This document shows, one piece after another, positions 1 through 64,000 of a DNA stretch of 64,000 bases. How positions within the stretch are numbered: position 1 is the first letter of the stretch; every line of letters begins with the position of its first letter. Source of the DNA: Naegleria gruberi (Eukaryota); NCBI GenBank assembly GCA_000004985.1, contig GG738913.1; one strand, given 5' to 3'. The notes beneath the pieces are model-generated. The model was not told the origin of the DNA and did no database searches. It was given only the letters and a program-made list of their open reading frames with translations. A program made the translations under genes and the position numbers.

Positions 1-1481
1 AAAATAATTTAATTAATTTATTAGAAAGAGATTTTAAACAAATAGAAGATTTACCTATAAATATTAAAATTATACCTGAATGTAAATATTCATATGGAAC
101 TAGTATTATTGTAATTCAATTAAAAATATTAAATTTTATTAAAAATATTAAAAATAATGAAATGATTAAATTTATTCCATATTTATTAAAACAATTTAAT
201 AATTTAATTGATAAAAATGTAAATAAAAATGTAAATATAGAACAAGTTAGATTACAAATACTAAGATCAATAATTTCAATTTTGGAATTAAATTCTACTA
301 TTATAGATATTAATAATATTTTAAATTTATTATTTAATTATTATAATTTAATGTTAAAAAATGAAAAGATTTATTTTTTTATTTTAATTGATAAAATATT
401 AAATTTAAATTATATTCCAAATATGGAAATTACTATAAAAATGTTTGAATCATTTATAAATGATTTAAAAAATGAAAATGATTTAATTTTTCCAATTAAT
501 AATTTAATTTCAATTTCTTCTATTGAATTATATAAAAATATAAAAAATATAATTATAAATTTATTTAAAAATGAAATTCCAATTAAATTTATTATTTTAT
601 TATTTGAAAAAGATTTTAATTATTTTAAAGAAATGATAAAAAATGAAATTGAAATTTTAACAAGAATATTAAATTATTTAAATGATTTAACAATAACAGA
701 TTTAGTAAATGAAACATTTATATTAAATAATTATCTATATATAGTAAAAATATTTGATAATATACCAATTAATGAAGAATTATTTAATTCAATTAATAAT
801 ATAATTAATATTTTACCAAAAACATTTCGTAGTTGTGTAATTGAAAATAATTGTATAGTACCATATTTAGAATGGTTAATTAAATTATATAATACTAAAA
901 AATTATATAATTATTCAATTGAATGTAAAAATGATATTACAATAACATTAGTATCATATTTAATTAATATGATATTAGATACCTATTGTTTAGAAATGTC
1001 TTATTTATTACATACTATTTTAATAATTGATATTTGTAATGAAGAAAATCCAAATTCATTATCTATTTTATTATCAAGAATTAATGAATTATCAAAAGAT
1101 TTATCTTGTATTGAATTGAGATGTTTAACATGTATGATTATTTATCCATATTGTTCTGATTTTTTATGTGATAAATTTGCATTTCTTAATTGTCAATTCA
1201 TTGAATTATTAAATATTAATGATTTTAGATTGGATTGGTTGATTTATTATTCTCTATCTTTTATTAGAGTTTTAGATGATTTAATGGAGAGAAGTAAATT
1301 TTGTAAAAGTAGAGTTTTTACAATTTTTGAATATTTGGAAAAATTATTTACTATAATATCATCATCAACAACATTATCAATGAATATGATGGATACAAAA
1401 TCATATCATGAAATTATTAGATTTAAAAGAAAATTAAATATTTATTTGGAGGAAAGTAATAGAGAAGAGATGATTTTATAA
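1..1481 (+). CDS. Hypothetical protein, 5'-truncated at the window edge. Extremely AT-rich ORF giving an I/N/L/K-rich helical-looking protein.
   Basis: The reading frame is open from base 3 through the TAA at 1479-1481 (more than 490 codons) in roughly 12% GC DNA. An ORF that long without stop codons cannot arise by chance at this composition. No recognisable domain. Confidence 0.45.
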   Translation, partial: NNLINLLERDFKQIEDLPINIKIIPECKYSYGTSIIVIQLKILNFIKNIKNNEMIKFIPYLLKQFNNLIDKNVNKNVNIEQVRLQILRSIISILELNSTIIDINNILNLLFNYYNLMLKNEKIYFFILIDKILNLNYIPNMEITIKMFESFINDLKNENDLIFPINNLISISSIELYKNIKNIIINLFKNEIPIKFIILLFEKDFNYFKEMIKNEIEILTRILNYLNDLTITDLVNETFILNNYLYIVKIFDNIPINEELFNSINNIINILPKTFRSCVIENNCIVPYLEWLIKLYNTKKLYNYSIECKNDITITLVSYLINMILDTYCLEMSYLLHTILIIDICNEENPNSLSILLSRINELSKDLSCIELRCLTCMIIYPYCSDFLCDKFAFLNCQFIELLNINDFRLDWLIYYSLSFIRVLDDLMERSKFCKSRVFTIFEYLEKLFTIISSSTTLSMNMMDTKSYHEIIRFKRKLNIYLEESNREEMIL

Positions 1482-1513
1482 AAAGAATGATGATTCATTG
1501 GATCCAATTATTT

Positions 1514-1834
1514 TTATAATACTGTCATAAAATTAAGATTAACCTCCTTTTTTGTTATATTGTTATTGTTGAAGTGTTTCTTGTTAATTAGTACTCTATA
1601 TTTTGACATATTGGATTTAAACTGTTTGCTGTTCCTGCTCCCTTTGCTGGTTGAGGTGGTTGAAATTTCACACTCAACAGTTTCATTCACACAATAGTGA
1701 TGATCATCTAATTGAACAAGCCTAAGATTTGGGTTGGATTGTGGTGTAATTTTATAAAGGAAATTGAGATTGACTTCCTTAATTAATTCTCTATCATTTT
1801 GTAATTCTTCACCCATAAATCTATTTACTATCAA
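1514..1834 (-). CDS. Hypothetical small protein. A short 5' exon around 1900-2000 is possible.
   Basis: A 106-codon ORF with normal coding composition (GC-richer than its surroundings) on the minus strand. No homology recognised. Confidence 0.25.
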   Translation of the reverse strand: MIVNRFMGEELQNDRELIKEVNLNFLYKITPQSNPNLRLVQLDDHHYCVNETVECEISTTSTSKGSRNSKQFKSNMSKYRVLINKKHFNNNNITKKEVNLNFMTVL

Positions 1835-2435
1835 TTTTAAATGATCAATTTTATATAATAATTGTTGATTATTAATTTAGTAACAAAATTTAAATCTCTA
1901 AATACATGATTATCCTTTTTAAATATCATACTTTCCATATCTAATCTATCACAATAACTCATTTTATAATCAAATTTATTATCAAATAATATTGGTTCAA
2001 TAACATTTCTTGTTTTAAATATTCAAAAAAAAATAAAAATTTTGGATTTAAATTAATACATTTAATATTTGTTTATCTCTTATTGTATCTAATATTGAAT
2101 ATAGATAATTTATAGGAGGTGATTCATATTGACTTTGATTTTTTATAATATATTTAAATTATCTTGTATTGCTTTTGATGGATGTTGATATTTGGTTTTT
2201 AATAAAGAATTACAAGTAATATCTAATTTAATGATAACAATATTGTCAAATTGTGTAAAAATGAATACGAATATTAATTGCGTTTACAATCTTGCTATTG
2301 TTAATCGAATGAATATGAAAAAACCCAATGCCTATTAAATATATTCATCATTATCATCATTGTATAATATTATATTAAATAATATATTAATATTATTAAA
2401 TAATATTATTATTATAATACTAAAATTTAATAATA

Positions 2436-3083: not shown

Positions 3084-3298
3084 TTTTTTTAATATTTTAA
3101 TTTATATAACTTTCTTATTAGATATCTGATTTGCTTGTCAATTTGTTTCAAACAAGACAAAATTTAGAGATTTATGCCATTAGGAGAATGTTCATGCACA
3201 TGATCACATAGATCATAATTTTTTAATTTGTAACCAAAATATCAACTTGATTTATTCAGCAGATTTATAATTCCATGTTTCATAATAAAATGGTCCAT

Positions 3299-4110: not shown

Positions 4111-7100
4111 TTACAAATTTAAATGTTGTTTTTGAATATTAATATAATGAGTGTATGGATTAACAGAAAGAGAATCCAAAGTTAATTTTCTATCCTTTAA
4201 ATCCTTCATACATTTAACATATAAATTAAAAACTTCATAATTATTGAATAAATGTTTGTCATAATTAATTGCCTTTCTTCTAATTAAATAATGTTGTTGT
4301 AAAAGTTTTTGATTATGATCTGGGAATGGAACATCAATAATTAAATCAATTTCACTTCCAATTTTACGTAAAATTTCAGATTCTTCTTCAAGTTTCAATT
4401 GAGATGCTAAACAAATACCATTAAATCTCATTAAAGATGTAGCAGATGACGTAGCAGATAATTCTTGTTGATCAATGAGTGGAACATATTGTTGTAATTG
4501 TAAAGTATGATATTTAACATTTGGTAATTGTTGAGATAATTTCTCACCAACATATGGAGTAACATAAATTGTAAATCTCAAATGTTGATATAAAATATAA
4601 ATGGATTGTAAAATATGATTAATTAAATCCATATTTGTACGTGTTGAATGTGGGAATGAAGCAATTAAAACTGATTTTCTATCTGTATCTATATTTGGTA
4701 AATTAGGGAAGGCACTCATCATTCCTTTTAAGAAGGCATCTCTAACTGTTTGTCCAAAACATGCTACTTCACCTGTACTTGCCATTTCAACTCCCAACTT
4801 TGGATCACAATCTAATAATCTTCTAAATGAAAACATTGGAGCTTTACATCCATAGAATGATTTGGAAAATCTCTTTCTTTGAATAATTTCAAATTCTTTT
4901 GTAATAATACTATCTATCATTATCATCAGTTTTACCATTACTATTATTTTGTAATGATGATGTATTAGAATGTGTAATGGATTCAACTTGTTCACGTTTC
5001 ATTGTAATTTGTTCAAGTAAATTCATTTGTTGATAATAATTTCTAGTTGGAACATTACTACCTGGTAAGCTTGTGATGGTATTTGAATTGACCAATGATG
5101 ATGCTAATGATGAAGAAGAAGATGGTAAATTGAAATGATGAGTAAAGATTCTAGTAGCCAATGCAATAAAATCCAAATCTAAAGTCTTACTAATGAATGG
5201 GAATGATCTACTTGCTCTCAAATTACATTCAATAACACGTAATCTCTTTGATAATTTCAAATATAAAGATTCAGATTCAAAACTATCATCATATCCATCT
5301 AGTGAATTTGTTGAGAATGATTGAGTCATTCCTTGTTGTTGTCCATGTTCTTCTTCTTCTTCTTGATCATCATCATGAATACATTCATTATCAAATAAGA
5401 ATTGCATATTAAATGGACCACTAATTGATAAAGATTTAACAATCATTGATGCCTTTTCTCTAATTAAATCTTGAATATCAAAACTCAATGAATAAGGTGG
5501 ACAAATTAGAGTAGCATCACCAGAGTGAGTACCTGCTCTTTCAACATGTTCACTAATTGCATCAATAATAATTTCACCATTCATTGCAACACCATCAATT
5601 TCAATTTCTTTAGCATTTTCATAAAATTTAGAAATGACAACTGGATGTTCTTTAGAAACGTCAGCAGCCATATATAATTGTTGTAATAATTCAGAATCTG
5701 AATAAGCAACATTCATTGCAGCACCTGATAAAACATATGAAGGTCTAATTAAAACAGGATATTGAACCTTATTAGCAAAAATTAAAGCATCTTCAATAGT
5801 AATTAAATTAGCCCATTCAGGTTGATAAACCAATTTGTCACCTGTCTTTTCATTAACAAGTGAATCTAAGAGTTGTGAAAATTTAGAACGATCTTCACAT
5901 TTATCAATTGAATCTGAACTAGTTCCTAAAATTTTAACATGACATTGTTTATCCAAAGGTAAAACAATATTATTAGGTTGTTGACCACCAACACTAACAA
6001 TAACACCTTGTGAATGTTCCAATTCATAAATATCTAAAACTCTTTCTAAACTTAATTCTTCAAAATATAAACGATCAGGTTCATCATAATCAGTTGAAAC
6101 AGTTTCAGGATTATAATTAATCATTATAGTCTTGTAATTTAATCTCTTCAATTCTCTAACACTCATCACACCACAATAATCAAATTCAACACTACTACCA
6201 ATTCTATAAACACCACTTCCTAATACAATTATACCTTCATCATTAAATGAAACATCATGATGATAACAATGATCTGGATAAATCATTTCACCTCCTTCCT
6301 TTCCAATACTATTAATACCTGCATTATAGGTTGTATAGAGATAATTTGTTTGTGCTGGATATTCTGCTGCTAATGTATCAATTTGTTTAACAATTGGTTC
6401 AATCTTATATTGATACTTTCTAATAAATCTAACCATTAATTCTTTATCAATCTTACTTAATTTAGGTGGATTTTTATAGGTATCTTTATATTGTGGTTGA
6501 GTATTATTAGTATTATTATTAGTAGTATTATTAGTATTATCAGTAGTAGTATTATTACTATTATTATTAGTATTAGTATTATTATTGAAACATGATAATT
6601 GATATGGGAATTGAACTTGATTCTTTAAAATTGCTTGTAAAAATTCATGATATAACAATGAAGGTAAACTTGAAGCAATTTGTAAATCAGAGAAACCTTG
6701 TTGTTTGGAAAGTAAAAGTAATGGATATGGAAGTTCAGGTAATGAATTCAATAATTTACCAATTCCAACCAATGCCTTCTTAGTTTGAATAATATTTTGT
6801 AATTTGTACAAGAACCAACGATCAATTTGAGTAAATTGATGAATTTGGTCAACTGTCATTTCAAAATGTTCCATAGCAAGTGAAATAGCAAAGATACGTT
6901 GATCAGTTGGATGAGTTAATTCTCTAATAATCTTTTGTTTGATATCTTCTTTTGGTGAAACTTGTGGTTGTAAAGCAAATGGATTAGTGACACTACTATT
7001 AAATAAGTGAGAATGAGAACTAGATCCAAAACTACCATAATGAGTTTGACCAAAGCTTCCAAAATGAGTAGAACCAGATCCAAAACTACCATAATTAGTA

Positions 7101-33308: not shown

Positions 33309-36300
33309 ATGTTTGGACGTTTCTTTGGTAGTAAAAACAAGGCTGCATCAGCTGATGATGATATTTCTCAAGTTGAAACAACCACAACCACCACTACAAA
33401 TACAACACACCAACCAATGAAGAACAACAACAAGCAGTACACTAAAAAGGAGCCAAAGAATAGTGCTCCAAAGAAAATTGAATTATACGACAATGTAAAG
33501 ATAGTATCGGGAACAAGCATTCCAACAGGATTGGCTGCCAGTAGAGCTACTTGTATCAAGAAGACACCAATCACTGATAATATTCCTACATTCGAATCAA
33601 GTCCTGATTCTTTCATCCATGTACATATTGGAAAGGAATATTCTGACAAGGCTTCATCAGTTTTACCATTGGTGGCTCACAAAGTTCAATGTCACGTCAT
33701 GTATCCTATTGTTCAAGTCGTTTTCCACAATGACTTTTAGAAATACTATTGAAAATAGATCAATTGAAGGTGAATTAGTTCTTCCAATGCCTGAAACTGC
33801 CACGATGACTGGTTATGCAATGGAAGTTGATGGAAAACTCATTGATGCAGTTCCAGTTGAAAAGGAAAAGGCCAAGGAAGTTTTTGAAAGTGAAGTTAGA
33901 GCTGGAAATAAGGTTTCAATGGTTGAAAAGGTTGCACAATCCAATTGTTTCCGTACTCGTATTTATCCATTACCATACAATCAAGATAAGACAATTCAAG
34001 TCAAGTATCAATTAATGTTGAATGAGATTATCGAAACTCAAAATGAAAATGAAACTGGTACAATTAAGGGCACTGCTTGGTTCCCTGTTACTTATACAGA
34101 TTTCTCAGTATTAAGAGAATCCAACATTGAATTTACTTTGAATGAGACATCATTGCAAGGATATGAAACTAATTTTACAATGAAAACTTCAGGAGTTGAA
34201 GAAAAGACTATCTGGTCAAGTAAGAATGCAAGCAAGAGAGCTGCTTATTTCAATGTTACCAAGAGTGATTTATCTGACAAATTGATTGGTTTTGGTATTG
34301 AAATTACCAAACAGGCTGATTCAGTTAATAATATTTTACTTGCATCAGAAAATGGTTACTTTATGACCTCTATCCCAGTTCCATCTTTGACCGAAGAAAT
34401 GAGAAATATGTCTCGTATTGGAGACAAAATTCAAATTGTTTGGGATTCATCACTTTCACAATCTAATTGTCATGCAAAGAATTTACAATTATTCAAGGCA
34501 ATTTTGGAAGCTTTGAATCCAAAAGCAATTTCCTTCTCAACATTCAGTAATGCCATTGTAGATCAAAAGAATTTTTCATCCACTTCAGATGCTTTGAGTT
34601 ATGCTGAAAAGATTGTTTATGATGGTGGTTCTAACATGCTTGTTTTCGATCAAAATTTGATTGATGATAGTTTTGATTATTGCATTGCTTTTACTAATGG
34701 TGTTCACACAATTGGACATGAAATTACCCCATCATGCAGCTTTGAAAGACCAATTTACTTTGTCAACGCCTCATCTACTGTTAATATCAATCTCTTGAAG
34801 CACATCTCTACCAAGTCTGGTGGTGTTTACCTCAATGCCAACGAACTTTCACAAGATCAAATTTTGAATGCTATTGGTAAACCAGTCTTGTCATTTGTTG
34901 TTGCAGATTTCGAAGATTCTGATATGGAAGAAGTTTATCCAAACGAACCAGTTTCTTTGAAGGAAGGAGAAATTTTCAAATTATATGGTAAAATCAAAAA
35001 CTCTGGAAAGGAAACAGCTAAGGTTGCTGTATCTTTCAGATATGGTTCAAAGATTTATCACATTCAAGAACTTGATATTCCAACAAGTGTTAACAATGTT
35101 CCTGAAGAGGCTGCCATTCTTCCAACTTTGTGGGCTCAACAAAAGATTGACTCTCTCTCTGCATTCCCTCAACTTTTCAAGGATGATATTAAGAAGATTG
35201 GCCAAGAATTTAGGATTGTTACTGACAATACTTCCCTGATTGTTCTTGAAACTTTGAGTCAATATCAAAAACATGACATTGTTCCGCCAAAGACTCTCAC
35301 TGAAGTCTATAAACAATTCATGCAAGTAAAGACATCTGCACAAGAAGCTAAGGATAAACAAGAAAAGGAAAAGTTAGAAAGAATTATTAGTATGTGGAAG
35401 GAAAGAGTTAATTGGCATAAGACTGACTTTAAATTACCTGAAGAAAAGCCAGAAAAGGAAAAGAAAAAGTTGGCTGCAATGGATGACTGTATTTCTGAAT
35501 CTCTCTCTGTACAATCCTCTAGTTTGGATAGTTGTTGTAGATGTGAGGAGAGTAGAGAATGTTGCAGAGAATGTTGCAGACGTTCTTGTGCACCATCTCC
35601 AAGTTGTGCTAGAAGTTGTTGTTGTCGTTCTGCTAGTCCTTCTTTGAGTTGTTCAGATATCAGTTCAGGTCCACCACCAGCTTTTGGAAGTGCAGGTAGT
35701 CCACCACCTCCTTCTGCTAAGTCAGTAGCCTCTCAAGAAGAACCTAGTGTTGCTGGTACCATTAAGGTTAAAGCATGGACTCCAGATGCTGCTTATTGTA
35801 CTGCCATTAGTCAAGCTAAAGATCCATATGAAGAATATGTTAAACAAAGAGAAAGTTATAGAGATTCTCCAGCTTTCTATTTGGATGTTGCTGACTATTT
35901 CCTTTCATCAGTTAAGAATAAGGAAATTGGTGTGAGAATTCTTACCAACGTTTCAGAGCTTGAATTGGAAAATGTTCAACTTTATCGTATTGTTGGTTAT
36001 AGACTTGATCAAGCTGAAGAATTGGAATTGGCTGAATGGGTCTTTGAAAGAGTTAAGAGCATTAATGGATTTGAACCTCAATCATACAGAGATCTTGCTC
36101 TAGTTAAGGAAAGAATGGGAAAGCATGAAGAAGCTATGGAATTATTCAATAGAGTTATTGTTGGTAAATGGGATCTTCGTTTTGATGAAATTGAAATGAC
36201 CGTTGCTACAGAGATGAACCATCTTTTGCTTAACAATCCAGATTTACCAATCATTGATAAGAGATTGATTCACAAGTTTGACCTCGATATTCGTATTTCA

Positions 36301-36705: not shown

Positions 36706-37767
36706 TTAAAAGCATTTTCTATGTACTATTGAAGGTCCAATTTCATCATACTCTTTGCATGAAATCCACATTGGTTCAAACGATGATAGAGAAGATAACA
36801 GGCTACCTCCAAGCCAAACTGAATATTTTCTAAATGGTGGAGCCTCAACATTGATTTTCACATTTGATGGAGCCAATGCACTTAACTCTTTTTCCACTCG
36901 TTCTGACAATCCTGTAAACATTGTTGTTCCACCTGCTAAGATTATATTTGAAAACATATCCTTTCTAACATCCATGTCACATTTTCTAATAGAATTGAAA
37001 ACCTGTTCATGAATCCCAGAATGTGAATCAAGATTGGGATTGAATAATTCCTCTGTGCATTTGAATCGTTCACATCCAATGTTAATCAAGCTTCCATCTG
37101 GTAATTCATAAGAAACATCAGTCACTGCCTTTTCATTTTCCTGATCAAAATCCAATGCAACATAGCAAATATTATGCTTCATATCTGTCATGACATCTGT
37201 TGGATGCTCTGCAAAATATGGTATTTTACATCCAGCAAATGCTTGAACCAAATATTCAGTAATTTCCCTTCCAGCAAAATTCCAACTTGAAATGGCATGT
37301 GTCAAGGCATATCCTTCATAGACAGGAACAGCTCTCGACACACTCTCTCCCAAATCCAAAACAATTCCACTTGTCTTGCCAGATGCAAACAACGCCAACA
37401 CTCCTTGCATTGCCACATAAAAACTTGATATATTAAACTCCTCAAACACGATCTGTGTCATCCTCTCTCTATTACACTTTGGTTCCCTCACTGCTTCACT
37501 CATCAAGATTGGATGTAATTCTGGCCTGCATCAAACTAGTTCCATATCAGACATGTTGGTAATGACACAATGTTCAATTGGATATTTCAATGTACAGATA
37601 CCTCTCTTAGCAATGGCTTCATCACCAACTATAGTGGTGCTTGTTGATTTCTTGTGGTGGCCAACTAGGGTTGGAAAGATTGATGTCGGAGTGTTGTCTT
37701 GTTCGTTTGCTATTCCTACTTTCATAGTACAAGATCCGTTATCAATTATTATAGCTGTTTTGGTCAT
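36706..37767 (-). CDS. Divergent actin / actin-like protein interrupted by one in-frame TGA. Possible pseudogene or sequencing error.
   Basis: The N-terminal ORF (37531..37767) carries [13 protein letters not shown] and the actin N-terminal phosphate loop. The C-terminal ORF (36706..37506) ends ...[10 protein letters not shown], identical to the actin terminus. Both are in the same frame, separated only by a TGA at 37531-37533. Confidence 0.6.
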
Positions 37768-38940: not shown

Positions 38941-41142
38941 ATGTCTTCACTAGTTACGAGGGCACAACTGTTTAATCCTTCTAGTGTTTTTGTTTCATCA
39001 AATAATGAAGTTTATATTGCTGATTTTTGTAATCATAGAATTAGAAAAATATTAGAAAATGGAAATATTGTAACAATTGCAGGAAATGGAAATTATGGAT
39101 TTAGTGGTGATAATGGTCCTGCAACAAATGCACAATTTAATTATCCTTGTAGTGTTTTTGTTTCATCAAAGAATGAAGTTTATATTACTGATTATAGCAA
39201 TCATAGAATTAGAAAAATATTAGAAAATGGAAATATTATAACAATTGCTGGAAATGGAACTGTTGGATTCAGTGGTGATAATGGTCCTGCAACAAATGCA
39301 CAACTTTATAATCCTTCTAGTGTTTTTGTTTCATCAAATAATGAAGTTTATATTGCTGATTTTTGTAATCATAGAATTAGAAAAATATTAGAAAATGGAA
39401 ATATTGTAACAATTGCAGGAAATGGAAATTATGGATTTAGTGGTGATAATGGTCCTGCAACAAATGCACAATTTAATTATCCTTGTAGTGTTTTTGTTTC
39501 ATCAAAGAATGAAGTTTATATTACTGATTATAGCAATCATAGAATTAGAAAAATATTAGAAAATGGAAATATTATAACAATTGCTGGAAATGGAACTGTT
39601 GGATTCAGTGGTGATAATGGTCCTGCAACAAATGCACAACTTTATAATCCTTCTAGTGTTTTTGTTTCATCGAATAATGAAGTTTATTTTACTGATCAAC
39701 ATAATAACAGAATTAGAAAAATATTAGAAAATGGAAATATTATAACAATTGCTGGAAATGGAAATTATGGATTTAGTGGTGATAATGGTCCTGCAACAAA
39801 TGCACAATTGTATAATCCTAATAGTGTTTTTGTTTCATCAAATAATGAAGTTTATATTACTGATTAAAGTAATCAAAGAATTAGAAAAATATTGGAAAAT
39901 GGAAATATTGTAACAATTGCAGGAAATGGAACTGCTGGATTCAGTGGTGATTCACCTTTTAATATTATAATGTATCCTCATATTGGAAATAAGTTATTAA
40001 CTGGAAATAGTAGCTTGTACTCCAAAATAGAATATAATTTGAAAAAACATTCAAGAGATCAATTATTTGGATTTCAAATTTATGGATTCATTCCACTCAT
40101 TGAAAAAATTTCACCAAAATTTAGTAATATTTTGAAGAATGAAAAGATGCTTTGTTTGATGAGTTCATCACAACAAGAAATTATTCAAAAATTAATTGAT
40201 TCTTTGCTGTATGATAAGAACAAGGTAAAGTTTAGCAAAGAAGAAGTGTTGGATGTTTTATTCATTTTGGGTTTATTTAAGAATGGTGAATTTATTGATT
40301 TGAAAAGATCATTGACAAGTGAATTTGTGAACTCATTCACATTAGAAAATCTTACTTTCAAATGGGAAACAATTGAAAATTTACTCAAAACTTGCAATGA
40401 GGAATTTGGTATTCAAAATTACATTCTCGATCAATTGAATAACCATTGCATTGAATATGCTGCTGTTCAAATGCAAACCAAAGAAGGAAACACTTTATTA
40501 TCGACTCTTCCAATAATTATGAGAAATGCTACTGCCATATTTCCAAAAATGATCATTGCTCAACCAACTGCAATTAATATTGAGGAAACAATTGAAAATG
40601 AACCACAAACAATTGAATCATTATATGGTGATATGAAAACAAGTGATGTAAAAATCAAAATGGGACAAAACAAATACTTATATTGTCACAAAACTGTATT
40701 GAGTTCATCAAGTACATTGTTTAATGCATTATTTGACAGTGGATCTTGTTTCAGTGATTTGAGTGATGATGGAATATTCACACCTGACGAATCAGAAGAT
40801 TTGGAATTATTGGAAATTGTGATCAAATATTGTTATAGAATTTCAATTGACAAAATTGATGCTGTTAAAATTATTGGATTACTTGATATGGCAATGAAAC
40901 ATGAAATTCAATATCTAATCAATTATTGCAAGAATAACTTTACTCTATCCATTGATAATTACTTTGCTATGCTTGAAGTTTGTGAAAATTATTTTGATTT
41001 ACAACTATTTGAGCAATTTTTGAGAGAGATTCTCAAGTTTAGCATTGTCAACAGAAAACAACTCTTCATAGATCAAAATAGAATTTCCAAATTACCTGAA
41101 AAATTTTGGCAAGAAATCTTAAAGCTTTCACAGGACTTTTGA
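38941..41142 (+). CDS. NHL-repeat + BTB/POZ domain protein. The single reading frame is interrupted by one in-frame TAA at 39865-39867.
   Basis: At least six NHL-like units of 56 aa (NHRIRKILENGNI[VI]TIAGNG...GFSGDNGPATNAQ). A BTB motif follows (DVKIKMGQNKYLYCHKTVLSSSSTLFNALF). ORFs 38941..39867 and 39892..41142 share a frame. Confidence 0.6.
38981..39652 (+). repeat. Perfect tandem duplication, 2 x 336 bp, inside the NHL-repeat gene. A diverged third copy follows.
   Basis: The segment starting ctagtgtttttgtttcatcaaataatgaagtttatattgctgatttttgtaatcat... at 38981 recurs identically from 39317. The third unit (39653 onward) carries substitutions and the in-frame TAA. Confidence 0.8.
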
Positions 41143-42546: not shown

Positions 42547-45368
42547 TTATTCATATCTCTTAATTTCCAGAGATTCAGTATTATATTGTTTAGTTTTGCT
42601 TTTGCCACCACTTTTACTTGCTGATGATGAAGATGGTGGTGGTGTGAATTTATCGTACTCAATGAAACACTTCTCATTCCTGTAAATCTCAATAATCTTC
42701 TTCCAATGTTCATCAATACTCAATAACTCTGCATTGCCTACAATAACCATGAGTGATATGGCTCTGGAAATGGCCACGTTCAATCTCTTTGGATTTTGTA
42801 GGAAACCAAGCTTGAATTTGGAATCTTGTTCCAATCCTTCAGTGCTACTCGATCTGACAGTTGTCAAAAGGATGACTCTTCTTTCTTGACCTTGGAATTG
42901 TTCAGTAGTTCCAACAAAGATTTTTTTGTACAATGGATTGGTGGATTTTCTCAACAATTTTTTGATTTCTTCTGCTTGTTTTCTGTATGGAGTAATGATG
43001 CCAATTTCATGTTCAGGATTATATTGGTTGTGTTTGCTGTTGAAAACCAATCCAGACTTTACGATTTCATCCAATTTATCCATTAAAACTTGAATTTCTT
43101 TGGAATTATACCATGAAGGTGAGTCATTATCACGTTTCTCATCACCCTTAACGTGGTAAAACAACATTGGAACTTGTGGATTCTCCAAAATTGGATTGTT
43201 AATGAAGAGATTTGCTGAATTAATATCAGTACATGATGAAATTAAGGAATTATTATAAAATACAGAGCTATAGACTTGCATTATTTTAGGGTGAGCTCTG
43301 TATGATTGTTGTAATTGAGTAATAGAACAGCAATTATCTCCTAACTTGACTAAATGTTCCAAGAGGGATTCGCCCAATCCATATTCAACAGCAAGAGGAG
43401 ATCTTACAATTGGTCCAAGTTGTTTTGGATCACCTGCCAACACAACAACTGTATTGTCACCTTTCAAAGAGAATGGTATTAATGCTTCTGGAATAACAGA
43501 TTCACCAGATTCATCAATAATAATATGAGAAAAGTGTCCTGGCTTAACTCCCTTACTGTACAAATAACCAGATGAAGTGCATGTTGAAATAATTACATCA
43601 TATTTGGCGATTTCATGTAATTCTGGAATTTCAAAACCTTGATCAAGTTTGTTTGAGAATTTAATAATCCACCTCTTTGTGAATGTATTTGGATCTCTTT
43701 GAACACTATTCATTCTCATCATTTTCACTAATGGATTCAAGTTACTATCGACCAGTCTTTCCACAATAATATCAGCTGCTTGATTGGAAGGAGCACATAT
43801 GAGAATCTTGTGATTTGGATCTTGTTTCATAATTTCCAAGATACATTGAGATACTACGAATGTTTTACCTGTTCCAGGAGGTCCAAAAACTATTTTGATA
43901 TTAGTAAGAATCTAGCACCAGAAAATACATTCCTGAAATAAGGAGAGTCACACATTGAGAGAGCTCTATGCATCAACTTGATTGGAGTTCTTGAGAATCT
44001 GAAACTGATATCAACCTTTTCATACTTTTCTACATTTTCATGGAATGAAACAACTACATGATCTAAATTGACATAATGAATGAAACCTTTGAAAAGAACA
44101 GTTCTTGCCTTTGTTTCGTGATGAGGTCTACATAAAATCAAATCTCCTCTCAATACGGATGGTCTCTTTTCAGCAAGACCTGCACAATAGACTTTGTACA
44201 ATCTAGAATTAGGAGCATGTCTGTATCTTTCCTCATAGCTTTCCAATTTAATTCCTGACAAGTCGTATTGCTTAATGTCATAAATCATTTGGGCCTCTTC
44301 AACATGTAATAATGTTCCTAATAAATTATGAGTGTATGTGTACATGTCATTAGTAGAAACATGTTCATTTGGTTCCTGTTGAGTAACCTTTGTTCCTTGT
44401 TTCAATTCACCAGACAATTCATTCTTGAGTTGAGCATTCATTGCATGTTTTTCCAATATTTTCTTATTATCCAAAACATTCTTAATCTTATCAGGAAGTT
44501 CATAAGCTTCCAATGGTTTTTGGAATTTCATTCCATCCCCCAAAGGTCTCTTTCCAGATTTGACATTATTAAATCTCCAAACATGTCTATATTTTCTCTT
44601 CTTCAAATTTGGTAATTTGTAAATTCTGTCTGGATCATAATGAAGAGTGAAAATCTTCTTTACAGAACCACCCTCAAGAGTTTCCTTTTCAAGGGTCTGA
44701 TAGAAAAATAAAGTGGGATGTAAAATTTGATAAACCAACATTTGAGGACTCAATTGTGAATAATTCAACTTGAATCTTTTGTGAACCATTTTGAGAAGTT
44801 TCTTGGTATCCATCTTTCTTGGCACATCCAAAGTAGATGTGACAAAATGAATAATATCTCTCTTTCTATTCTCATCCAAAAGGAGACCATTCATACTTGT
44901 GCCATTATTATTATTATTATTATTATTGGACACAGATGGTGGTGGAGTTGATTCTGATTGTTGTGGAGTTGCTTGTTTCTTTGCTCTTTTCCTACGATTT
45001 GAATTTTTAGATGTTGTTTTACCTGTTGTGGTGGTGCCTGCAGAAGTCTGCTTGTGAGCAACATTTGATGATGCAGATGCATGTTGCACAACAACATTCA
45101 ATGCAGCTTTGAATGTTGTTGATGCATTAGCATTCACCATGCTCTTCTTAATATCGGCCTTCTTTTTACGAGTGCGCTTTGGCTGTGGAGGAGCCGTGTT
45201 GGCTAAATTTAAAGTAGTATCAGCCACCACTACATGTTGGTGATGGTCATCTGAAATAGTTGAAGTGTTATTTGCTGGTTTTCTTGTGCGTCTTGTTCTT
45301 CTTGTGCCTGCTTGTTGTGGGTAGTTGTTGTTTGGTGTTGGGTTGGGAGGTGGAATGGTGGTGGACAT
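42547..45368 (-). CDS. MOV10/Armitage-like superfamily-1 RNA helicase with an N-terminal K/R/T-rich low-complexity region. A frame discontinuity lies at 43840-43895.
   Basis: The upstream ORF carries SFRFSRTPIKLMHRALS, a MOV10-like pre-helicase region. The downstream frame carries IVFGPPGTGKT (Walker A), ILICAPSNQAADII, IIIDESGE, VLAGDPKQLGP, TTEQFQGQERRVIL and the VAISRA motif. Confidence 0.7.
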
Positions 45369-47206: not shown

Positions 47207-47519
47207 TGTTGTTACACTGCTTTACCAAGCTTACATTTCCACTTCAACTCAAACTTCCCGCCTTTTTTACAACTTTGAAAAAAACAAAATTGGTCGTTAA
47301 AAGGTCCAGATGAACACGCGGAAAAAGAGGAGGAAATAGAGTCGGCTGTTGATTCATGAATGAATTAAAAATACAGCATCAGAGAGGAAGAAAGGAGGAA
47401 GAAATGAGACAAAGAAAAGCGAGTGTGTATAACAGTTGTGGATTGCATAAATAGCGAACACATTGTCTGAACTGACAATAACAAAAAATTGAAAACAATC
47501 AAAACAATCATCTCTTAAC

Positions 47520-50597: not shown

Positions 50598-52934
50598 TAA
50601 TATTTAATATTAAATACAATGATTAACAATGTAATGCTGAATAAAAGAATGAATTTTGATTCGCTCAAATTTGATGCTTGTGAAATAATTGTTCCATTGC
50701 TGTCAGCTCTTGGAATGACACCTCCTGAAGAAGTTGCCACAATTGGCTTGGATGATTTACTTGGAGTAGGTTTCGTATAGGAATAGCTTGGTTGTGGTGT
50801 AGTAGAAGCTACTGGAATTGGAATACTTGGCTGAGGAGATGGTGGATGGAATCGAATTATTGGAAGAATTTGAGTTGATTACTTGATCTAATTTCACACC
50901 GATTTGATCAATTGGAATTTGAACTCCCAATAACAAACTCAAATAGCTTTCCAATACTGTGAAATTACCAGCAGCAAAATTTACAAAAATTGAATCAGTC
51001 ATTTCGGCTGTATTATTCGAATAGGTACTATACTTTTTGAAATTATTGAAAATTGAATTACTCGTCTTTCCAACAAACACATTAAATGTCACATTATTGC
51101 CTTTTGGAGTATTTGGTTCATCATTGAGTATATTTGGAAGTGTTGGATATGAGTCAATCCAAATCTTACTCGTGTTAAATGGAACTTTGAGGAGATTTGT
51201 GTTAATTTCAACAGTATTGGCCCAGGTCAACCCACGATCATCTGCATAAATGGCCTGTGTATTATTCACAAACACATTTCCAAACACAACATTGTCTCTT
51301 CCACCACCAATCAATAATCCTCTATAACAGTCAACCAGGATATTTCCATACATGGTTACTGAAGAGAACATGTCATCCAAGTAGATGCATGTAGCACCTA
51401 GATCACCCATTCCTTTAACATTGTAAATGTAATTATATCTGATGAGATTACCTCTCTGTGTCCAATCACGTCCTGAATAAATTGCTGAACTATCTTGAGA
51501 TGATTTACAGACATTGTGAATCTTATTGTAGGATAAATCATGATTGTTACCTCCCCACATGATGGCTACGTGGTCTCCATTGTAAATTTCATTGTTTCTA
51601 CATGTGATTCCTACGCCTTGGACTGAAATTGCTGGTCTATAAGTTTTGCCAATTCTGGAATAGTTAAAAATTGTATTTCCCATAACAAGTGCATTCCATG
51701 AAGTAAGTGTAGTTCTTGATCCAGCACTAATGCTCAAACCTCCTTGTCCTATTTCATAAAATGTGTTGTAATTAATTTTACAATAATCATCACAGTTTGT
51801 CATTGAAATTCCTCTATTACCAATATTGGAAAAAGTACAATGTGAAATCTCAATTGCTGTCAATGTATTAGCAACTAAACCAACCCCTCTACACATTTCA
51901 AACTTGAGATTTGAAAATAATTGTCCATTGGCCAATGAAACAATCAAATGTTCAGAAACTGAAATCATGACATCATCATTGGCAGTGATTTCTGAAGGAG
52001 GCCAAAAGAAAATGACATCATCCAATATAATATATTCACCTGGCATGTCTAATTCACTCAAAAAGTTGGCCACATAAATTCTCTGACCTTTCTGAATTCC
52101 AAGCGAAGGTTTAAATTGTAATTGAACTGTTCCATTCGAATAGAGTTTAGAAAGCGGTGCCAATTCATCTGCCCAATCATAATAAAAGTAGGAGAATACG
52201 AATGGATACTTTTCAAGTGGCCAATTCATTCTATTAGGAGAACCAGTGCTGTTCAATCTCACCATGTATTCTGCATCAGTTGACAAGATTTTCAAATATT
52301 GATCTTCCCCTTGAGGAGTCTTATTTGGATATCTGGCAACAGTTTGAACCTTTCCTCTGAAGAATAACTCATTCCCAGATGTTGTTCCACCAATGGAATA
52401 ACCTGCCCTCTTGAGTGCCACAATCTGAGAGGAGGAGAAACCAGCTTGTGTTAAATTTAACATTTTAACATGACCCCTACTTGATTGTGGAAGCATTGAA
52501 TACGAATCTTCATCATTAGAATCAAATGTTTTCCACAAGTAGGAAGGCAATGGCACTGCTCCTGAAAAGATTACCTCACCATTCTCTCTCCATGGTTTCC
52601 AATAGACTGGCGATGATCGATCATTAAATTTCGAAGGTTTCACAATCGATGTTGAAGCATTGAAAAAATAACGACCATCATCAATGTTCACATAAATTGT
52701 AACATTCTTGATGAGAGTTTGACTGAGTGAATTCTTATAGGTTTGAATCCATTGAGAAGCTTTGGCTATGGTTTGAAAAGGACTAGTTGTTGAATTTCCT
52801 GAATTTGAATCAGATCCTTCGTGTTGGGAAATGTACAAGTTGACTGTTAGTGATTGTTGGGTGTTAACGAATGTTAAACATGCCCAACACATGCAAAACA
52901 GAATGGTTAAAAGGTAGTTATTCCCAAGAATCAT
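50598..52934 (-). CDS. Secreted right-handed beta-helix (pectate-lyase-fold) protein. The S/T/P-rich linker and GPI-anchor signal are in an alternative frame; the +1 switch lies between about 50760 and 50880.
   Basis: Signal peptide (MILGNNYLLTILFCMCWACLTF). Parallel beta-helix repeats are present (NNEIYNGDHVAIMWGGNNHDLSYNKIHN...). The annotated ORF stops at 50757. The +1 frame continues PSPQPSIPIPVASTTPQPSYSYTKPTPSKSSKPIVATSSGGVIPRADSNGTIISQASNLSESKFILLFSITLLIIVF*. Confidence 0.6.
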
Positions 52935-59471: not shown

Positions 59472-59724
59472 NNNNNNNNNNNNNNNNNNNNNNNNNNNNN
59501 NNNNNNNNNNNNNNNNNNNNNNNNNNNNNNNNNNNNNNNNNNNNNNNNNNNNNNNNNNNNNNNNNNNNNNNNNNNNNNNNNNNNNNNNNNNNNNNNNNNN
59601 NNNNNNNNNNNNNNNNNNNNNNNNNNNNNNNNNNNNNNNNNNNNNNNNNNNNNNNNNNNNNNNNNNNNNNNNNNNNNNNNNNNNNNNNNNNNNNNNNNNN
59701 NNNNNNNNNNNNNNNNNNNNNNNN
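59472..59724. other. Assembly gap (a run of 253 N).
   Basis: Literal n characters in the sequence. Not biological. Confidence 0.95.
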
Positions 59725-61696: not shown

Positions 61697-61791
61697 TTAA
61701 CCATTACAACAAAAAGATGTACATTATAATGTTGTAATATACCTGCAAATTATTGTAATTTCTCAAAACAAATAAACCAACTACTTTTAAT

Positions 61792-62697
61792 TTAAACCTT
61801 ATTTTCAATTATTGGAAAACCAATAATCTCACACATGAAACTGAATATTTGATCCTTAGTCAATTCTGATTTTAATTCTTTCAATATTGGATCTTCAGGT
61901 AGAACAAGATTTTCATCAATTTGGGTGGTACCTATCGGAGTAGCTTGAGTGGTTAATTGTGAGGATTGAGGAATCTCATTGTTTGGGGCACATGGAGTTT
62001 CGTTTCCTTTTTGCTGTGGTGTGGTTTGTTCGCTTATTGCTTGATTATCCACCCCTATTCTCGATCCATTGAACAATGAGTCAAGAATGGAGGATGATTC
62101 ACAAGTGGAGGGAAGATTCTTCTTGTTTTCATCTTCTTTTGAGTTGAGGAAAGCCTTTAGAATGTTCTTTCCAAGTTGAGAGAATTTACGTGATAATCCT
62201 AATGATGATCTTCCCTCAAATTCTGGTGTTTCAGCCATTCTTTCGAATATATCTTCGTCCACTAAATCAAATGATTTGTCATTGTGTTGATAGATAAAAT
62301 TCATCATATTTCTAATTTCCTCATCAGAATATTTGGACTTTTTCTGCTTCTTTCTCAAACTCTCGGAAGGAGACAATACAAATGATGAAACATCTCCAAT
62401 CCAAACACCTTTCGAATAACTTTCCTCAATGAATTTCTCAGATAAAACCATTCCAATTCCAGAACTTGCCAACTCTTCATCGAATTGATTCGAAATAATA
62501 AAGTCAGCATCTTCAATCTCATCCACAATTTCACCTCCCAATGTCAAAGCCTTTGTCATTATTTCATCCATCCTGCAGCAACTAGTCTCCAATTTATCTT
62601 GTTTGATATCAAAGAAGAATGAAAAAGCCTTGTTTGAGTGTTGTATGAAATTGGATTTTGATCTTTTGCTTCTTCTCTCGCCACCACCTCTTGCCAT
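61792..62697 (-). CDS. BRCT-domain protein with an N-terminal basic region and a Q/T/P-rich middle.
   Basis: LTLGGEIVDEIEDADFIISNQFDEEL...IVLSEKFIEESYSKGVWIGDVSSF fits a BRCT fold. The start is taken at MARGGG (62697). Confidence 0.45.
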   Translation of the reverse strand: MARGGGERRSKRSKSNFIQHSNKAFSFFFDIKQDKLETSCCRMDEIMTKALTLGGEIVDEIEDADFIISNQFDEELASSGIGMVLSEKFIEESYSKGVWIGDVSSFVLSPSESLRKKQKKSKYSDEEIRNMMNFIYQHNDKSFDLVDEDIFERMAETPEFEGRSSLGLSRKFSQLGKNILKAFLNSKEDENKKNLPSTCESSSILDSLFNGSRIGVDNQAISEQTTPQQKGNETPCAPNNEIPQSSQLTTQATPIGTTQIDENLVLPEDPILKELKSELTKDQIFSFMCEIIGFPIIENKV

Positions 62698-63128
62698 TTT
62701 TTTTAGCCTTAATTTTTTTTCAACTTTGTTCCCCAACACAAATTGCCTTTAATTTGCATGCATAATATTTAAACCTTAGGGCAGTCATTCCTCAAAGAAT
62801 GTAATCTACTTCTATCAAAGGCAATTTTGCCATCAGGACATGTTTTGGAAGTGGAGTTTTGCACTTCTAATATTTAAATTCTCCACTAAATTTGCCAATT
62901 CATGCTTGTTGTCATCTCACCATAACAATCATCACAATTATTAACACTCTTAAAAAATTGTTTCAACAATTGAACATCCTAAGACTCAAATTTCAACATT
63001 TTCTTTCAGACTTTGAAAGGGAAAATTGATCAACAAACAACTCATCAAAATTTGATCTCTCAACAAGCGACACCTCTCTCTAGCTTATCGTTCACCAAGC
63101 CACAACAACAATTTTGCAAAACATAAAA

Positions 63129-64000
63129 ATGAGCGAACAACCAAAGATCGTTCATCTCACACGAGACAATCACCCCTCAGAGAGCAGCAATACTTTTTCA
63201 TCATCAACATCAACAACATCACTGAATGGTGAGGATGGTGTTGTTGGAGAGCAGGTGGGAATTAAATCCTTTACTGGTGAAACATTTGATTCCTTAACTT
63301 CCCCACTCCCAAGATCCCACTCACTCCCATTTGGTTTATCGGAATCAGCAAGTGGATTCTTTACAACAACAGAAGATGAAGAGGGTTTTTCTAATGAAAT
63401 TTCCAGAATTATTGAAAAGGAAGTCATCAAGGAAATTAATGAAAAAGTTAGAATACATAAACATGAAGTACAACATGCAGTACCACTTACCCTGATGGAT
63501 GTGATCAATACAATGAAGGAAGGTGCTGAAAGTGTTCAAAGAGACGATTTTACAGAATGTTTCCGTCCAAAACCACCAGAACCTTGGAATTGGAATCTTT
63601 TCCTGTTTGTTGGTTGGTTGATCGCATTGATCGGACGTTACTGTATACTTTTACCATTGAGAATATTATTATTCTTATCAGGAACTATTGCATTCATATT
63701 AGTAACTTTGATTTTAATGGTATTGAGAAGTATCTTTGAAAAAAAGAAAAATTCACAAGAAGAAACTGAACAAGATCAACAAGAAGAAAAGAAAATTACC
63801 ACCCTTGATTGGTTAGTAAGAAAATCACTCCAATATTACAGTGCTATTTGGATTCACAGTATGTCAGGAGTTATCAAAATTCATGGCATTCCTCCTGTTA
63901 GAAGAAAGAATCAAATTTATGTTTCAAACCACACTTCACTTATTGATTTTATTCTCTTAACTTATTTGTGTGGTGTTGCAACTGTTGGTCAAAAGCATGG
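63129..64000 (+). CDS. GPAT3/4-like glycerol-3-phosphate / lysophospholipid acyltransferase, 3'-truncated at the window edge.
   Basis: Two TM helices (NLFLFVGWLIALIGRYCILLPLRILLFLSG...) are followed by the acyltransferase motif I, VSNHTSLIDFILL. The gene was not in the ORF track because it runs off the window. Confidence 0.65.
   Translation, partial: MSEQPKIVHLTRDNHPSESSNTFSSSTSTTSLNGEDGVVGEQVGIKSFTGETFDSLTSPLPRSHSLPFGLSESASGFFTTTEDEEGFSNEISRIIEKEVIKEINEKVRIHKHEVQHAVPLTLMDVINTMKEGAESVQRDDFTECFRPKPPEPWNWNLFLFVGWLIALIGRYCILLPLRILLFLSGTIAFILVTLILMVLRSIFEKKKNSQEETEQDQQEEKKITTLDWLVRKSLQYYSAIWIHSMSGVIKIHGIPPVRRKNQIYVSNHTSLIDFILLTYLCGVATVGQKH

What the first reader, a model, noticed from the sequence alone, without database searches (positions are those of the whole stretch)
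1..64000. Seven frame lesions in 64 kb of otherwise conserved genes, skewed to +1 shifts and to stops one mutation away from Trp/Tyr codons
There are four +1 discontinuities (CPSase, VIT, GST, beta-helix), two of them exactly at 0-frame TAG codons. There is one -1/+2 discontinuity (helicase) and two in-frame stops (TGA at a Trp site, TAA at a Tyr/Gln site). Large neighbouring ORFs (1835, 1083, 1011 and 758 aa) are intact, so this is not a variant genetic code. It is more lesions than expected for finished sequence. Not all are homopolymer-associated: the CPSase TAG site is not. The options are low-quality draft consensus, a lineage with many recent pseudogenes, or recoding. These are not separable from sequence alone.
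Basis: inference. Interest (0 to 1): 0.55.

Follow-up and report, generated by a model that had tools for sequence, protein, structure and literature searches.

The report
Scattered gene defects in draft amoeba genome
The seven broken reading frames are real in this draft sequence of the amoeba Naegleria gruberi, but they are seven unrelated small defects (slippage indels, one deletion, two nonsense changes, perhaps one intron) of the kind left by draft errors, null alleles and young pseudogenes, with nothing pointing to a special way of reading the genes.

Summary
The window is nuclear DNA of Naegleria gruberi NEG-M, from the JGI Sanger draft (a 236-kb scaffold with one N gap). All seven discontinuities exist, but they share no mechanism.

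- **VIT:** one extra T in a T-run, five codons upstream of the TAG.
- **GST:** a 2-bp (TG) deletion relative to a 98.6%-identical environmental strain whose gene is intact. This protein has been quantified by mass spectrometry in NEG-M.
- **CPSase:** the frame switch falls on GATAGATAG, which looks like a 4-bp tandem duplication.
- **Helicase:** about 20 codons, including the LNxxQ motif, are missing. The gene lies in a duplicated, decaying region.
- **Beta-helix protein:** it does continue in the +1 frame, as its N. lovaniensis relatives show. The cause is either an indel or an atypical 52-nt intron.
- **NHL-BTB TAA:** a point change in the last unit of a young tandem repeat.
- **Actin-like TGA:** it sits next to a 9-residue deletion.

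The +1 skew is not significant (4:1, p about 0.4). "One step from Trp/Tyr" holds for any stop codon. A 0-frame stop close to a shift is expected in this AT-rich DNA. No shift motif is shared and no lesion is conserved in relatives, so recoding is not supported. Whether each lesion is an assembly error or a real mutation needs the reads. Verdict: ordinary, low interest.

The parts
4910..4918 (-). CPSase frame switch: GATAGATAG. The second GATA puts TAG (4912-4910) in frame, and the downstream CPSase C-terminal domain continues in the +1 frame to 4111.
   Evidence: Read directly from the sequence. The codon-usage maximum-likelihood switch falls at 4915-4912. ORF B aligns to human CPS1 residues 1291-1479. 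The annotated model NAEGRDRAFT_59636 (1818 aa) stops at this TAG. That the cause is a 4-bp tandem duplication is inferred, not shown.
33721..33724 (+). VIT frame switch: a T4 run where relatives have T3. The old frame then runs five more codons to TAG 33738-33740.
   Evidence: Window GTCGTTTTCCACAATG, N. fowleri GTCGTTTCTACAATG, metagenome relative GTTGTTTCGACCATG. The protein alignment shows VQVV | STMTFRN.
30364..30368 (+). GST frame switch: loss of one TG from ACTTGTGTT. The gene's ATG is at 30329 and the old frame stops at 30410-30412.
   Evidence: Contig L003, 98.6% identical and collinear, has TCTACTTGTGTTCAACG where the window has TCTACT--TGTTCAACG. Its protein P0377 (214 aa) is intact and otherwise identical. 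The annotated model, 208 aa, starts at the internal ATG 30345.
50831..50882 (-). Beta-helix protein frame switch zone: either an indel or a 52-nt GTAATC...CAG intron. The +1 frame continues to the stop at 50599-50597.
   Evidence: The N. lovaniensis paralogues share the QIPxxxIG motif, a P/S-rich linker and a hydrophobic tail with the +1 frame. The codon-usage switch falls in 50879-50843. The candidate donor scores like a random GT, and its GC of 0.38 is above that of all 13 curated introns.
43890..43951 (-). Helicase lesion: frame A ends at TAG 43892-43890 and IVFGPPGTGKT follows in the +2 frame. About 17-25 codons, including LNxxQxxAV, are absent. The annotation bridges the gap with a 62-nt GTGACT...ATAG intron.
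   Evidence: The candidate donor scores like a random GT. A degraded paralogous copy sits on another scaffold.
39865..39867 (+). In-frame TAA in the sixth NHL repeat. The same frame stays open for 424 more codons through a BTB domain.
   Evidence: The repeat array has a 168-nt period with 5.9 copies, and the equivalent codons are TTT, TAT, TTT, TAT, CAA, TAA. The annotated model, 308 aa, ends here.
37531..37533 (-). In-frame TGA in a divergent actin paralogue (ATG at 37767, end at 36706), next to a 9-residue deletion of the conserved WHHTFYNEL(R) segment.
59472..59724. A run of 253 N: a scaffold gap that marks this as a draft assembly.

Best explanation
The window comes from the Sanger whole-genome-shotgun draft of Naegleria gruberi NEG-M. 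The seven lesions are independent, ordinary defects with different molecular origins.

Three are small indels at short tandem repeats: T3 to T4 in a VIT paralogue, (TG)2 to (TG)1 in a GST, and GATA to GATAGATA in CPSase. These are typical of polymerase slippage. Each is either a consensus or cloning error, or a null allele that the assembler happened to pick up.

The helicase has lost about 20 codons and sits in a duplicated region whose other copy is also degraded. The actin-like gene has a stop next to a 9-codon deletion. These two look like real young pseudogenes of multi-copy families.

The NHL-BTB TAA is a single substitution in a recently amplified repeat. The beta-helix gene changes frame inside a low-complexity linker, by an indel or by an atypical 52-nt intron.

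Nothing is recoded. Translation simply stops, unless the real genome or a second allele is intact.

Shown here: the organism, the position and type of the VIT and GST lesions, the helicase and actin deletions, and the continuation of CPSase and the beta-helix protein in the shifted frame. Inferred: the GATA duplication, and the split between error and real mutation.
For: - **Organism:** ORFs of the window match N. gruberi NEG-M proteins exactly, all on one 236,320-bp scaffold. The assembly is Sanger, with 1,977 scaffolds (PMC9928731). The window has an N gap.
- **VIT:** an extra T relative to N. fowleri and a metagenome relative. An intact N. gruberi paralogue exists, NAEGRDRAFT_63705.
- **GST:** a 2-bp deletion relative to a 98.6%-identical strain whose 214-aa protein is intact. 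There is only one synonymous difference in the rest of the CDS. XP_002670607.1 was quantified by LC-MS in NEG-M itself (PMC9035749).
- **CPSase:** both halves are conserved, and the switch maps onto GATAGATAG.
- **Helicase:** nine homologues, from a broad range of eukaryotes and metagenomes, all carry 50-60 residues including LNxxQ that are absent here. A paralogous copy at 94-96% identity is truncated further.
- **Actin-like gene:** a 9-residue deletion beside the TGA.
- **NHL:** the TAA stands where sister repeats have TAT, TTT or CAA.
- **Introns:** the 13 curated introns of the window all have GTNNGT donors, lengths of 39-106 nt and GC of 0.30 or less. None of the candidate introns at the lesions fits.
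- **Precedent:** frameshift errors and polymorphisms between heterolobosean assemblies and their transcripts are documented (bioRxiv 10.64898/2026.08.18.745565).
Against: - Seven disrupted genes out of about 30 is a high density. Two nonsense substitutions are hard to explain as errors in a Sanger assembly, since only about 1 in 20 random coding substitutions makes a stop.
- Conversely, each gene except the helicase and the actin-like gene carries a single lesion in an otherwise intact, conserved ORF, which is unusual for old pseudogenes.
- No reads, traces or transcripts could be examined, so no site is formally assigned to error or mutation.
- The beta-helix site stays unresolved. The 52-nt intron model reproduces the 9-residue spacing seen in the N. 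lovaniensis paralogues.
- The GATA duplication is a reading of the sequence, not a comparison with a relative.
Confidence: 0.8

Rival explanations
1. All seven are errors of the draft consensus (base calling, cloning or assembly), and the real NEG-M genes are intact.
For: - The sequence is a draft Sanger WGS with a gap.
- Most affected genes carry one lesion in an otherwise intact ORF.
- The GST frame-B product is abundant enough in NEG-M to be quantified by LC-MS, and the first AUG has a good context, so an intact gene is the simplest reading.
- Three indels sit at short tandem repeats.
Against: - The helicase lacks about 20 codons and its paralogous copy is degraded too.
- The actin-like gene has a 9-codon deletion as well as the stop.
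- Two nonsense substitutions would imply roughly 40 substitution errors in about 40 kb of coding DNA, far above what Sanger consensus gives.
- Indels of 2 bp and 4 bp are not typical base-calling errors.
Confidence: 0.15
2. All seven are real mutations in NEG-M. On this reading a long-cultured, probably polyploid clonal laboratory strain (ploidy from memory, not checked here) carries many recent, possibly heterozygous, loss-of-function alleles and young pseudogenes.
For: - The lesions fall in multi-copy or plausibly dispensable genes: GST, a VIT paralogue, a divergent actin, NHL-BTB, a MOV10-like helicase in a duplicated region, a surface beta-helix protein, and CPSase in cells grown on rich medium.
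- Core genes in the window are intact (Sec23, CFAP52, kinesin, polyprenyl synthase).
- Between strains, indels occur about once per 300-500 bp in non-coding DNA.
- Heterozygosity in N. gruberi has been reported (PMC9928731).
Against: - The GST protein is detected in NEG-M, which would need an intact second allele or initiation at the internal AUG.
- Complete BUSCO for the assembly is 85.7% with 1.3% fragmented, so a genome-wide lesion rate of about 20% is unlikely.
Confidence: 0.25
3. Programmed recoding: +1 ribosomal frameshifting at TAG (Euplotes or antizyme style), plus read-through of TGA and TAA.
For: - Four shifts are +1 in frame terms, and three of the five old frames end in TAG.
- The helicase site reads AAA-TAG, the Euplotes shift motif. 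(That AAA-TAR is the Euplotes motif is from memory, not checked in the literature here.)
- Downstream ORFs are long and conserved.
Against: - The VIT shift is five codons before the TAG, at GTT-TTC-C, with no stop or known slippery motif.
- GST needs two bases re-read, not one skipped, to give the conserved STCVQRV.
- The helicase shift is +2 and lacks 20 codons.
- Close relatives have plain ORFs at the VIT and GST sites.
- The sites share no motif, and Rfam finds no frameshift element.
- The stop contexts, TAA-A and TGA-T, are not known read-through contexts.
Confidence: 0.02
4. Some of the 'frameshifts' are ordinary short spliceosomal introns that were misread because the window was taken to be prokaryote-like. 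The candidates are the 52-nt intron in the beta-helix gene and the 62-nt intron that the JGI model uses in the helicase.
For: - The organism has many 39-106-nt GT-AG introns.
- The 52-nt model gives KLDQ|PSIPIPVAS, with the same 9-residue spacing between IG(V/L) and the P-rich linker as in N. lovaniensis.
- The annotators modelled the helicase this way.
Against: - Both donors (GTAATC and GTGACT) lack the G5/T6 that is invariant in all 13 curated introns, and they score at the median of random GT dinucleotides. Their GC of 0.38 and 0.32 is above all 13.
- The spliced helicase still lacks the LNxxQ segment that every homologue has.
- The N. lovaniensis paralogues have their introns elsewhere.
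- No consensus-type intron can join the frames at CPSase, VIT or GST.
Confidence: 0.3

Closest known systems
Frameshift and nonsense artefacts, and polymorphic indels, in draft protist genome assemblies
   Same: These are isolated single lesions in otherwise conserved ORFs. They lead to truncated or missing gene models, as seen here for the CPSase, GST, beta-helix and NHL models. Frameshift discrepancies between heterolobosean assemblies and their reads are documented for Naegleria clarki, Acrasis and Creneidae (bioRxiv 10.64898/2026.08.18.745565).
   Different: Here only one of seven is a homopolymer error of the classic kind. Two sites carry larger deletions that base-calling cannot produce.
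Young or unitary pseudogenes and loss-of-function alleles in multi-copy gene families
   Same: The helicase lies in a segmentally duplicated region with a second degraded copy. The actin paralogue has a deletion plus a stop. The VIT gene has an intact paralogue.
   Different: Most of the affected genes show only one lesion and no other sign of decay. One of them, GST, is detectably expressed as protein.
Programmed +1 ribosomal frameshifting (Euplotes AAA-TAR sites; antizyme UCC-UGA-U; yeast ABP140/EST3)
   Same: The frame moves by +1, and in two or three cases the old frame ends in a stop codon close to the shift.
   Different: The sites share no motif. The VIT shift is not at a stop. GST would need a -2 shift. 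The lesions are absent from relatives. The underlying DNA changes are of different sizes and signs.
Stop-codon reassignment or context-dependent read-through (Condylostoma, Blastocrithidia, Blepharisma UGA=Trp)
   Same: There are in-frame TGA and TAA codons at positions where relatives or sister repeats carry sense codons.
   Different: There are only two such stops in 64 kb. ORFs of 1835, 1083, 1011 and 758 codons have none. The one tRNA-Trp gene that is confidently identified has anticodon CCA.

Membership tests
Programmed +1 ribosomal frameshift site | The shift occurs at a defined slippery or hungry codon, usually with a 0-frame stop or rare codon in the A site | tested here: not met
   VIT shifts at GTT-TTC-C, five codons before the TAG. 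GST shifts at TGT-TCA and needs two bases re-read. The helicase shift is +2 with a deletion. Only CPSase coincides with a TAG.
Programmed +1 ribosomal frameshift site | The frameshift is conserved in orthologues | tested here: not met
   N. fowleri and a metagenome relative have an uninterrupted VIT ORF. A 98.6%-identical strain has an uninterrupted GST ORF.
Programmed +1 ribosomal frameshift site | A trans-frame protein is made from the frameshifted template | not testable with these tools
   This needs read-verified DNA plus peptides across the junction. PRIDE dataset PXD032745 could be searched for such peptides.
Stop-codon reassignment or read-through | In-frame stops recur across many genes, or sit in a known read-through context | tested here: not met
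   Only two in-frame stops join long same-frame coding segments. The contexts are TAA-A and TGA-T. The long ORFs are stop-free.
Naegleria gruberi spliceosomal intron | GT-AG bounds, a GTNNGT donor, length around 39-106 nt, and GC of 0.30 or less (from 13 curated introns of this window) | tested here: not met
   Beta-helix 52 nt: GTAATC, GC 0.38, donor score -4.9 bits. Helicase 62 nt: GTGACT, -4.9 bits. CPSase 22 nt and 148 nt: -3.8 and -0.4 bits. True introns score 5.3-12.6 bits under leave-one-out. The training set is small, so an atypical intron at the beta-helix site is not excluded.
Pseudogene | More than one disabling change, or loss of an essential conserved segment | tested here: met
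   This applies to the helicase and the actin-like gene only. The helicase lacks the LNxxQ segment and changes frame. The actin-like gene lacks 9 core residues and has a TGA. It is not met for CPSase, VIT, GST or NHL-BTB, which carry one lesion each.
Pseudogene | An intact paralogue or a duplicated context that relaxes selection | tested here: met
   VIT has the paralogue NAEGRDRAFT_63705. Copies of the helicase region lie on two other scaffolds at 94-97% identity. The GST and actin families have more than one N. gruberi member (second GST: XP_002670102.1; actin from general knowledge), and the NHL domain is itself a tandem repeat. CPSase was not tested.
Assembly or sequencing error | Independent reads from the same strain disagree with the consensus at the site | not testable with these tools
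   The N. gruberi assembly and its reads are not in the searchable collections. There is indirect support for GST only: the protein was detected in NEG-M.

The most novel reading that the evidence does not exclude
N. gruberi NEG-M really carries all or most of these lesions. That would put recent disabling mutations in roughly one gene in five across this region. It would reflect a rapid build-up of (perhaps heterozygous) null alleles in a polyploid, clonally propagated laboratory amoeba, with slippage at very short tandem repeats as the main mutational route.
Probability: 0.25. Interest if true: 0.3.

Novelty: already known. Interest (0 to 1): 0.1.

Why it matters
This matters mainly for housekeeping.

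- Four N. gruberi reference gene models in this window are truncated at the lesions: the CPSase model lacks its C-terminal allosteric domain, the GST lacks its catalytic N-terminus, the beta-helix protein lacks its membrane tail, and NHL is cut off from its BTB domain. The VIT gene has no model. No model matching the actin-like ORF segments was found either.
- The helicase model hides a deletion behind an invented intron.
- Anyone using these models for metabolic reconstruction or proteomics databases inherits those errors.

If the lesions turned out to be real in NEG-M, they would give a small view of mutation accumulation in a long-cultured clonal protist. Nothing here suggests a new decoding mechanism.

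Tried and rejected
- **"They are all introns."** This was my first idea once the eukaryotic origin was clear. I rejected it for CPSase, VIT and GST. Relatives are collinear through the VIT and GST sites, and no consensus-type GT-AG pair joins the frames.
- **A 127-nt GTTTGT...CCAG intron in the beta-helix gene (50938-50812).** Rejected because it would remove the QIPxxxIG motif that is conserved in N. lovaniensis.
- **A conserved intron position in the N. lovaniensis beta-helix paralogues.** Their introns lie inside the beta-helix domain, not at the linker.
- **A dictyostelid origin**, suggested by the poly-N/Q tracts. Replaced by N. gruberi after exact protein look-ups.
- **Synteny with N. 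fowleri around VIT**, to recover more orthologues. There is none.
- **A chimeric GST + CPSase homology query.** CPSase candidates swamped it and it returned no Naegleria CPSase.
- **Locus look-ups of N. gruberi proteins.** The genome is not indexed there.
- **Two JGI metagenome scans for sister-strain contigs at the other lesions.** Neither found anything.
- **The tRNA next to the actin-like gene as a possible UGA decoder.** It is an intron-containing tRNA read either as Trp(CCA) or His(GUG), not a suppressor or Sec tRNA.
- **Papers.** The original genome paper and its review are not held in the library.

Full report
**What the window is.** The DNA is AT-rich (about 32% GC). It has genes on both strands, proteins with poly-N/Q tracts and one run of 253 N at 59472-59724. 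Ten clean ORFs of the window were looked up by exact sequence, and six are identical to annotated proteins of Naegleria gruberi strain NEG-M, all on a single 236,320-bp scaffold. Five more exact matches followed. According to PMC9928731, the NEG-M assembly is a Sanger whole-genome-shotgun draft of 40.9 Mb in 1,977 scaffolds. So this is a eukaryotic draft, not finished sequence and not a prokaryote. It has real spliceosomal introns. I curated 13 of them from conserved genes: kinesin, an AGC-type kinase, RCC1, a Zn2Cys6 factor and others. They are 39-106 nt long, have 15-30% GC and all carry a GTNNGT donor.

**Checking the observation.** All seven discontinuities are present. A scan for same-frame ORF pairs separated by one stop located the two in-frame stops. 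The five frame changes were read directly. Pfam and PDB comparisons confirm that the coding sequence carries on in the shifted frame in each case.

**VIT.** A repaired N-terminal query found relatives at 46-57% identity: N. fowleri, N. lovaniensis, metagenome sequences and an intact N. gruberi paralogue, NAEGRDRAFT_63705. In the alignment, frame A supplies ...YPIVQVV and frame B supplies STMTFRN.... At the DNA level N. fowleri reads GTCGTTTCTACAATG, a metagenome relative reads GTTGTTTCGACCATG, and the window reads GTCGTTTTCCACAATG. So there is one extra T in a T-run (33721-33724).

**GST.** Distant GSTs align without a gap only if the protein reads ...GIPQSTCVQRVLTT.... The N. gruberi model (208 aa, starting at the internal ATG 30345) clusters with a 214-aa protein from an ENA metagenome. 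Its 3.2-kb contig is collinear with the window and 98.6% identical to window 29998-31935, with SNPs and several non-coding indels, so it comes from a different strain of the same species complex. It reads TCTACTTGTGTTCAACG where the window reads TCTACT--TGTTCAACG. The window therefore lacks one TG of a (TG)2 repeat, and the rest of the CDS differs by a single synonymous base. A copper-metabolism study quantified this very protein (XP_002670607.1) by label-free LC-MS in NEG-M (PMC9035749). The downstream frame is therefore translated in the sequenced strain. The simplest reading is that the real gene, or one allele of it, is intact.

**CPSase.** Frame A ends at human CPS1 residue 1272 and frame B resumes at 1291 and runs to 1479. 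The break lies inside a lineage-specific low-complexity insert of about 90 residues, so homologues cannot place it. A codon-usage likelihood scan recovered the known VIT and GST positions and put the CPSase switch at 4915-4912. That is exactly on GATAGATAG. With a single GATA the reading is ...[12 protein letters not shown].... I infer a 4-bp tandem duplication, and that duplication itself creates the TAG. Many GT...AG pairs could join the frames in this AT-rich stretch, but none has a consensus donor. The putative 148-nt "intron" is also stop-free in frame A for 49 codons. The annotated model (1818 aa) simply stops at the TAG.

**Helicase.** The annotated model (P0255, 919 aa) bridges the break with a 62-nt GTGACT...ATAG intron, giving RALSM|FFGPPGTGKT. 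Nine homologues, from a broad range of eukaryotes and metagenomes, all have 50-60 residues between RAL and GPPGTGKT, including the LNxxQxxAV motif. The window has room for only about 25 of them, split over two frames. That makes a loss of about 17-25 codons with a frame change, not a -1 slip. Two neighbouring genes on either side of the helicase (the 238-aa gene at 41450-42166 and the NmrA-like gene at 47520-48422) have 96-97%-identical copies on other scaffolds. One model on a 23.6-kb scaffold (P0248) fuses pieces of the Hsp70-like gene, the helicase N-terminus (94% identity, stopping at residue 297) and the downstream 238-aa gene. The region is therefore duplicated and both helicase copies are damaged, which points to a real pseudogene.

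**Beta-helix protein.** A search of cluster representatives gave three N. lovaniensis paralogues at 42-48% identity. All share ...NFT.L...QIPxxxIG..., then a P/S-rich linker and a hydrophobic C-terminal tail. In the window, the linker and tail are encoded in the +1 frame (50878-50600), so the annotated 725-aa model has a false C-terminus. A 52-nt GTAATC...CAG element (50882-50831) would join the frames and reproduce the 9-residue spacing of the paralogues. Against that, its donor scores like a random GT and its GC of 0.38 exceeds all 13 curated introns. The paralogues also have their introns elsewhere. I rate an indel somewhat above an intron, and the site remains unresolved.

**The two stops.** The NHL domain is a 168-nt tandem repeat of 5.9 copies at 89-95% identity. 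The codon in question reads TTT, TAT, TTT, TAT, CAA and, in the last unit, TAA. The frame then stays open for 424 codons through a BTB domain. The actin-like gene aligns to actin over its whole length at an E-value of about 1e-121, but it lacks nine residues (WHHTFYNEL/R) right at the TGA. The stop can therefore be aligned with either Trp86 or Arg95.

**The claimed pattern.** In DNA terms the events are +1, -2, +4, an unknown small change, a deletion of about 60 nt, and two substitutions. They are not one class. A 4:1 split between the two possible shift classes has a two-sided p of about 0.38. After a shift, the old frame is expected to hit a stop after a median of 6-10 codons in this DNA, so a stop "at" the junction is unremarkable. 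Three TAGs out of five is nominally unusual (about 15% expected each, p about 0.03). But the test is post hoc, and in CPSase the inferred duplication creates the TAG. Any stop codon is one step away from a Trp or Tyr codon. There is no shared sequence motif and no Rfam frameshift element.

- The helicase and the actin-like gene carry deletions that base calling cannot produce, so they look real.
- Two nonsense substitutions would imply an implausible substitution error rate if they were artefacts.
- The VIT, GST and CPSase indels all sit at short tandem repeats in otherwise intact, conserved ORFs. For GST there is protein evidence from the same strain. These fit a consensus or cloning error, or a null allele of a heterozygous pair.

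Heterozygosity in N. gruberi has been reported (PMC9928731). Frameshift discrepancies between heterolobosean assemblies and transcripts have been described. Complete BUSCO for the assembly is 85.7%, with 1.3% fragmented, which argues against a genome-wide lesion rate like the one in this window.

**Verdict.** It is a mixed bag of draft errors or null alleles and young pseudogenes in a draft protist genome, with perhaps one misread intron. Recoding is not supported (about 2%). The practical outcome is a list of reference gene models that need repair.

Noticed in passing
window 37903-37995 (-): A second tRNA gene with a 23-nt intron, found by Rfam (43.9 bits) but missed by the default ARAGORN run. 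ARAGORN with the intron option reads it as tRNA-Trp(CCA) with a non-canonical intron position (30/31). With the canonical 37/38 position it reads as tRNA-His(GUG). Its body is unrelated to the tRNA-Trp at 29844-29918. It lies about 140 nt upstream of the actin-like gene.
   Followed up: partly
window 16384-17343 (-), also 23444-23495, 59023-58981 and 61148-61191: N. gruberi introns here are very short. The kinesin gene has five, of 39, 43, 51, 54 and 55 nt. All 13 curated introns have a GTNNGT donor, and several carry a CTAAT-like or TACTAAT-like branch motif.
   Followed up: partly
window 41450-48422; proteins P0243, P0248, P0249: Genes flanking the helicase in this stretch have 96-97%-identical copies on three other N. 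gruberi scaffolds. One annotated protein (NAEGRDRAFT_76286, 620 aa) is a chimeric model that fuses an Hsp70-like fragment, the helicase N-terminus and the 238-aa gene. This is either a segmental duplication or a divergent haplotig.
   Followed up: partly
L003 (ENA ERZ929261, contig k127_29368) against window 28645-31935: A public metagenome holds a strain 96-98.6% identical to NEG-M. Coding sequence is almost unchanged, while non-coding DNA differs by many indels (1-3 bp, 13 bp, 29 bp, and about 38 bp near the tRNA-Trp gene).
   Followed up: partly
window 33309-36654 (+): Outside Naegleria, the VIT + DUF2135 (YfaP_C) protein finds its named relatives, about 30% identical over the full length, almost only among Bacteroidota (Pedobacter, Chryseobacterium, Flavobacterium). 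That suggests an old bacterial origin for this Naegleria gene family.
   Followed up: no
window 1-2000: The first 2 kb are extremely AT-rich (17% GC) yet hold an intact 439-codon ORF (162-1481) rich in Ile, Asn and Leu, with no family match sought.
   Followed up: no
window 4111-10417 (-): The CPSase is a fused glutaminase + synthetase of the CPS1/CPSIII type with no ATCase or DHOase domains downstream. It carries several long low-complexity inserts (poly-N/T, H/Q/S-rich) inside conserved domains.
   Followed up: no
window 38962-39951 (+): The NHL propeller is encoded by a very young tandem array: a 336-nt super-repeat at 95% identity, with two pairs of blades identical at the protein level. 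Such an array could be collapsed or expanded in a shotgun assembly.
   Followed up: partly
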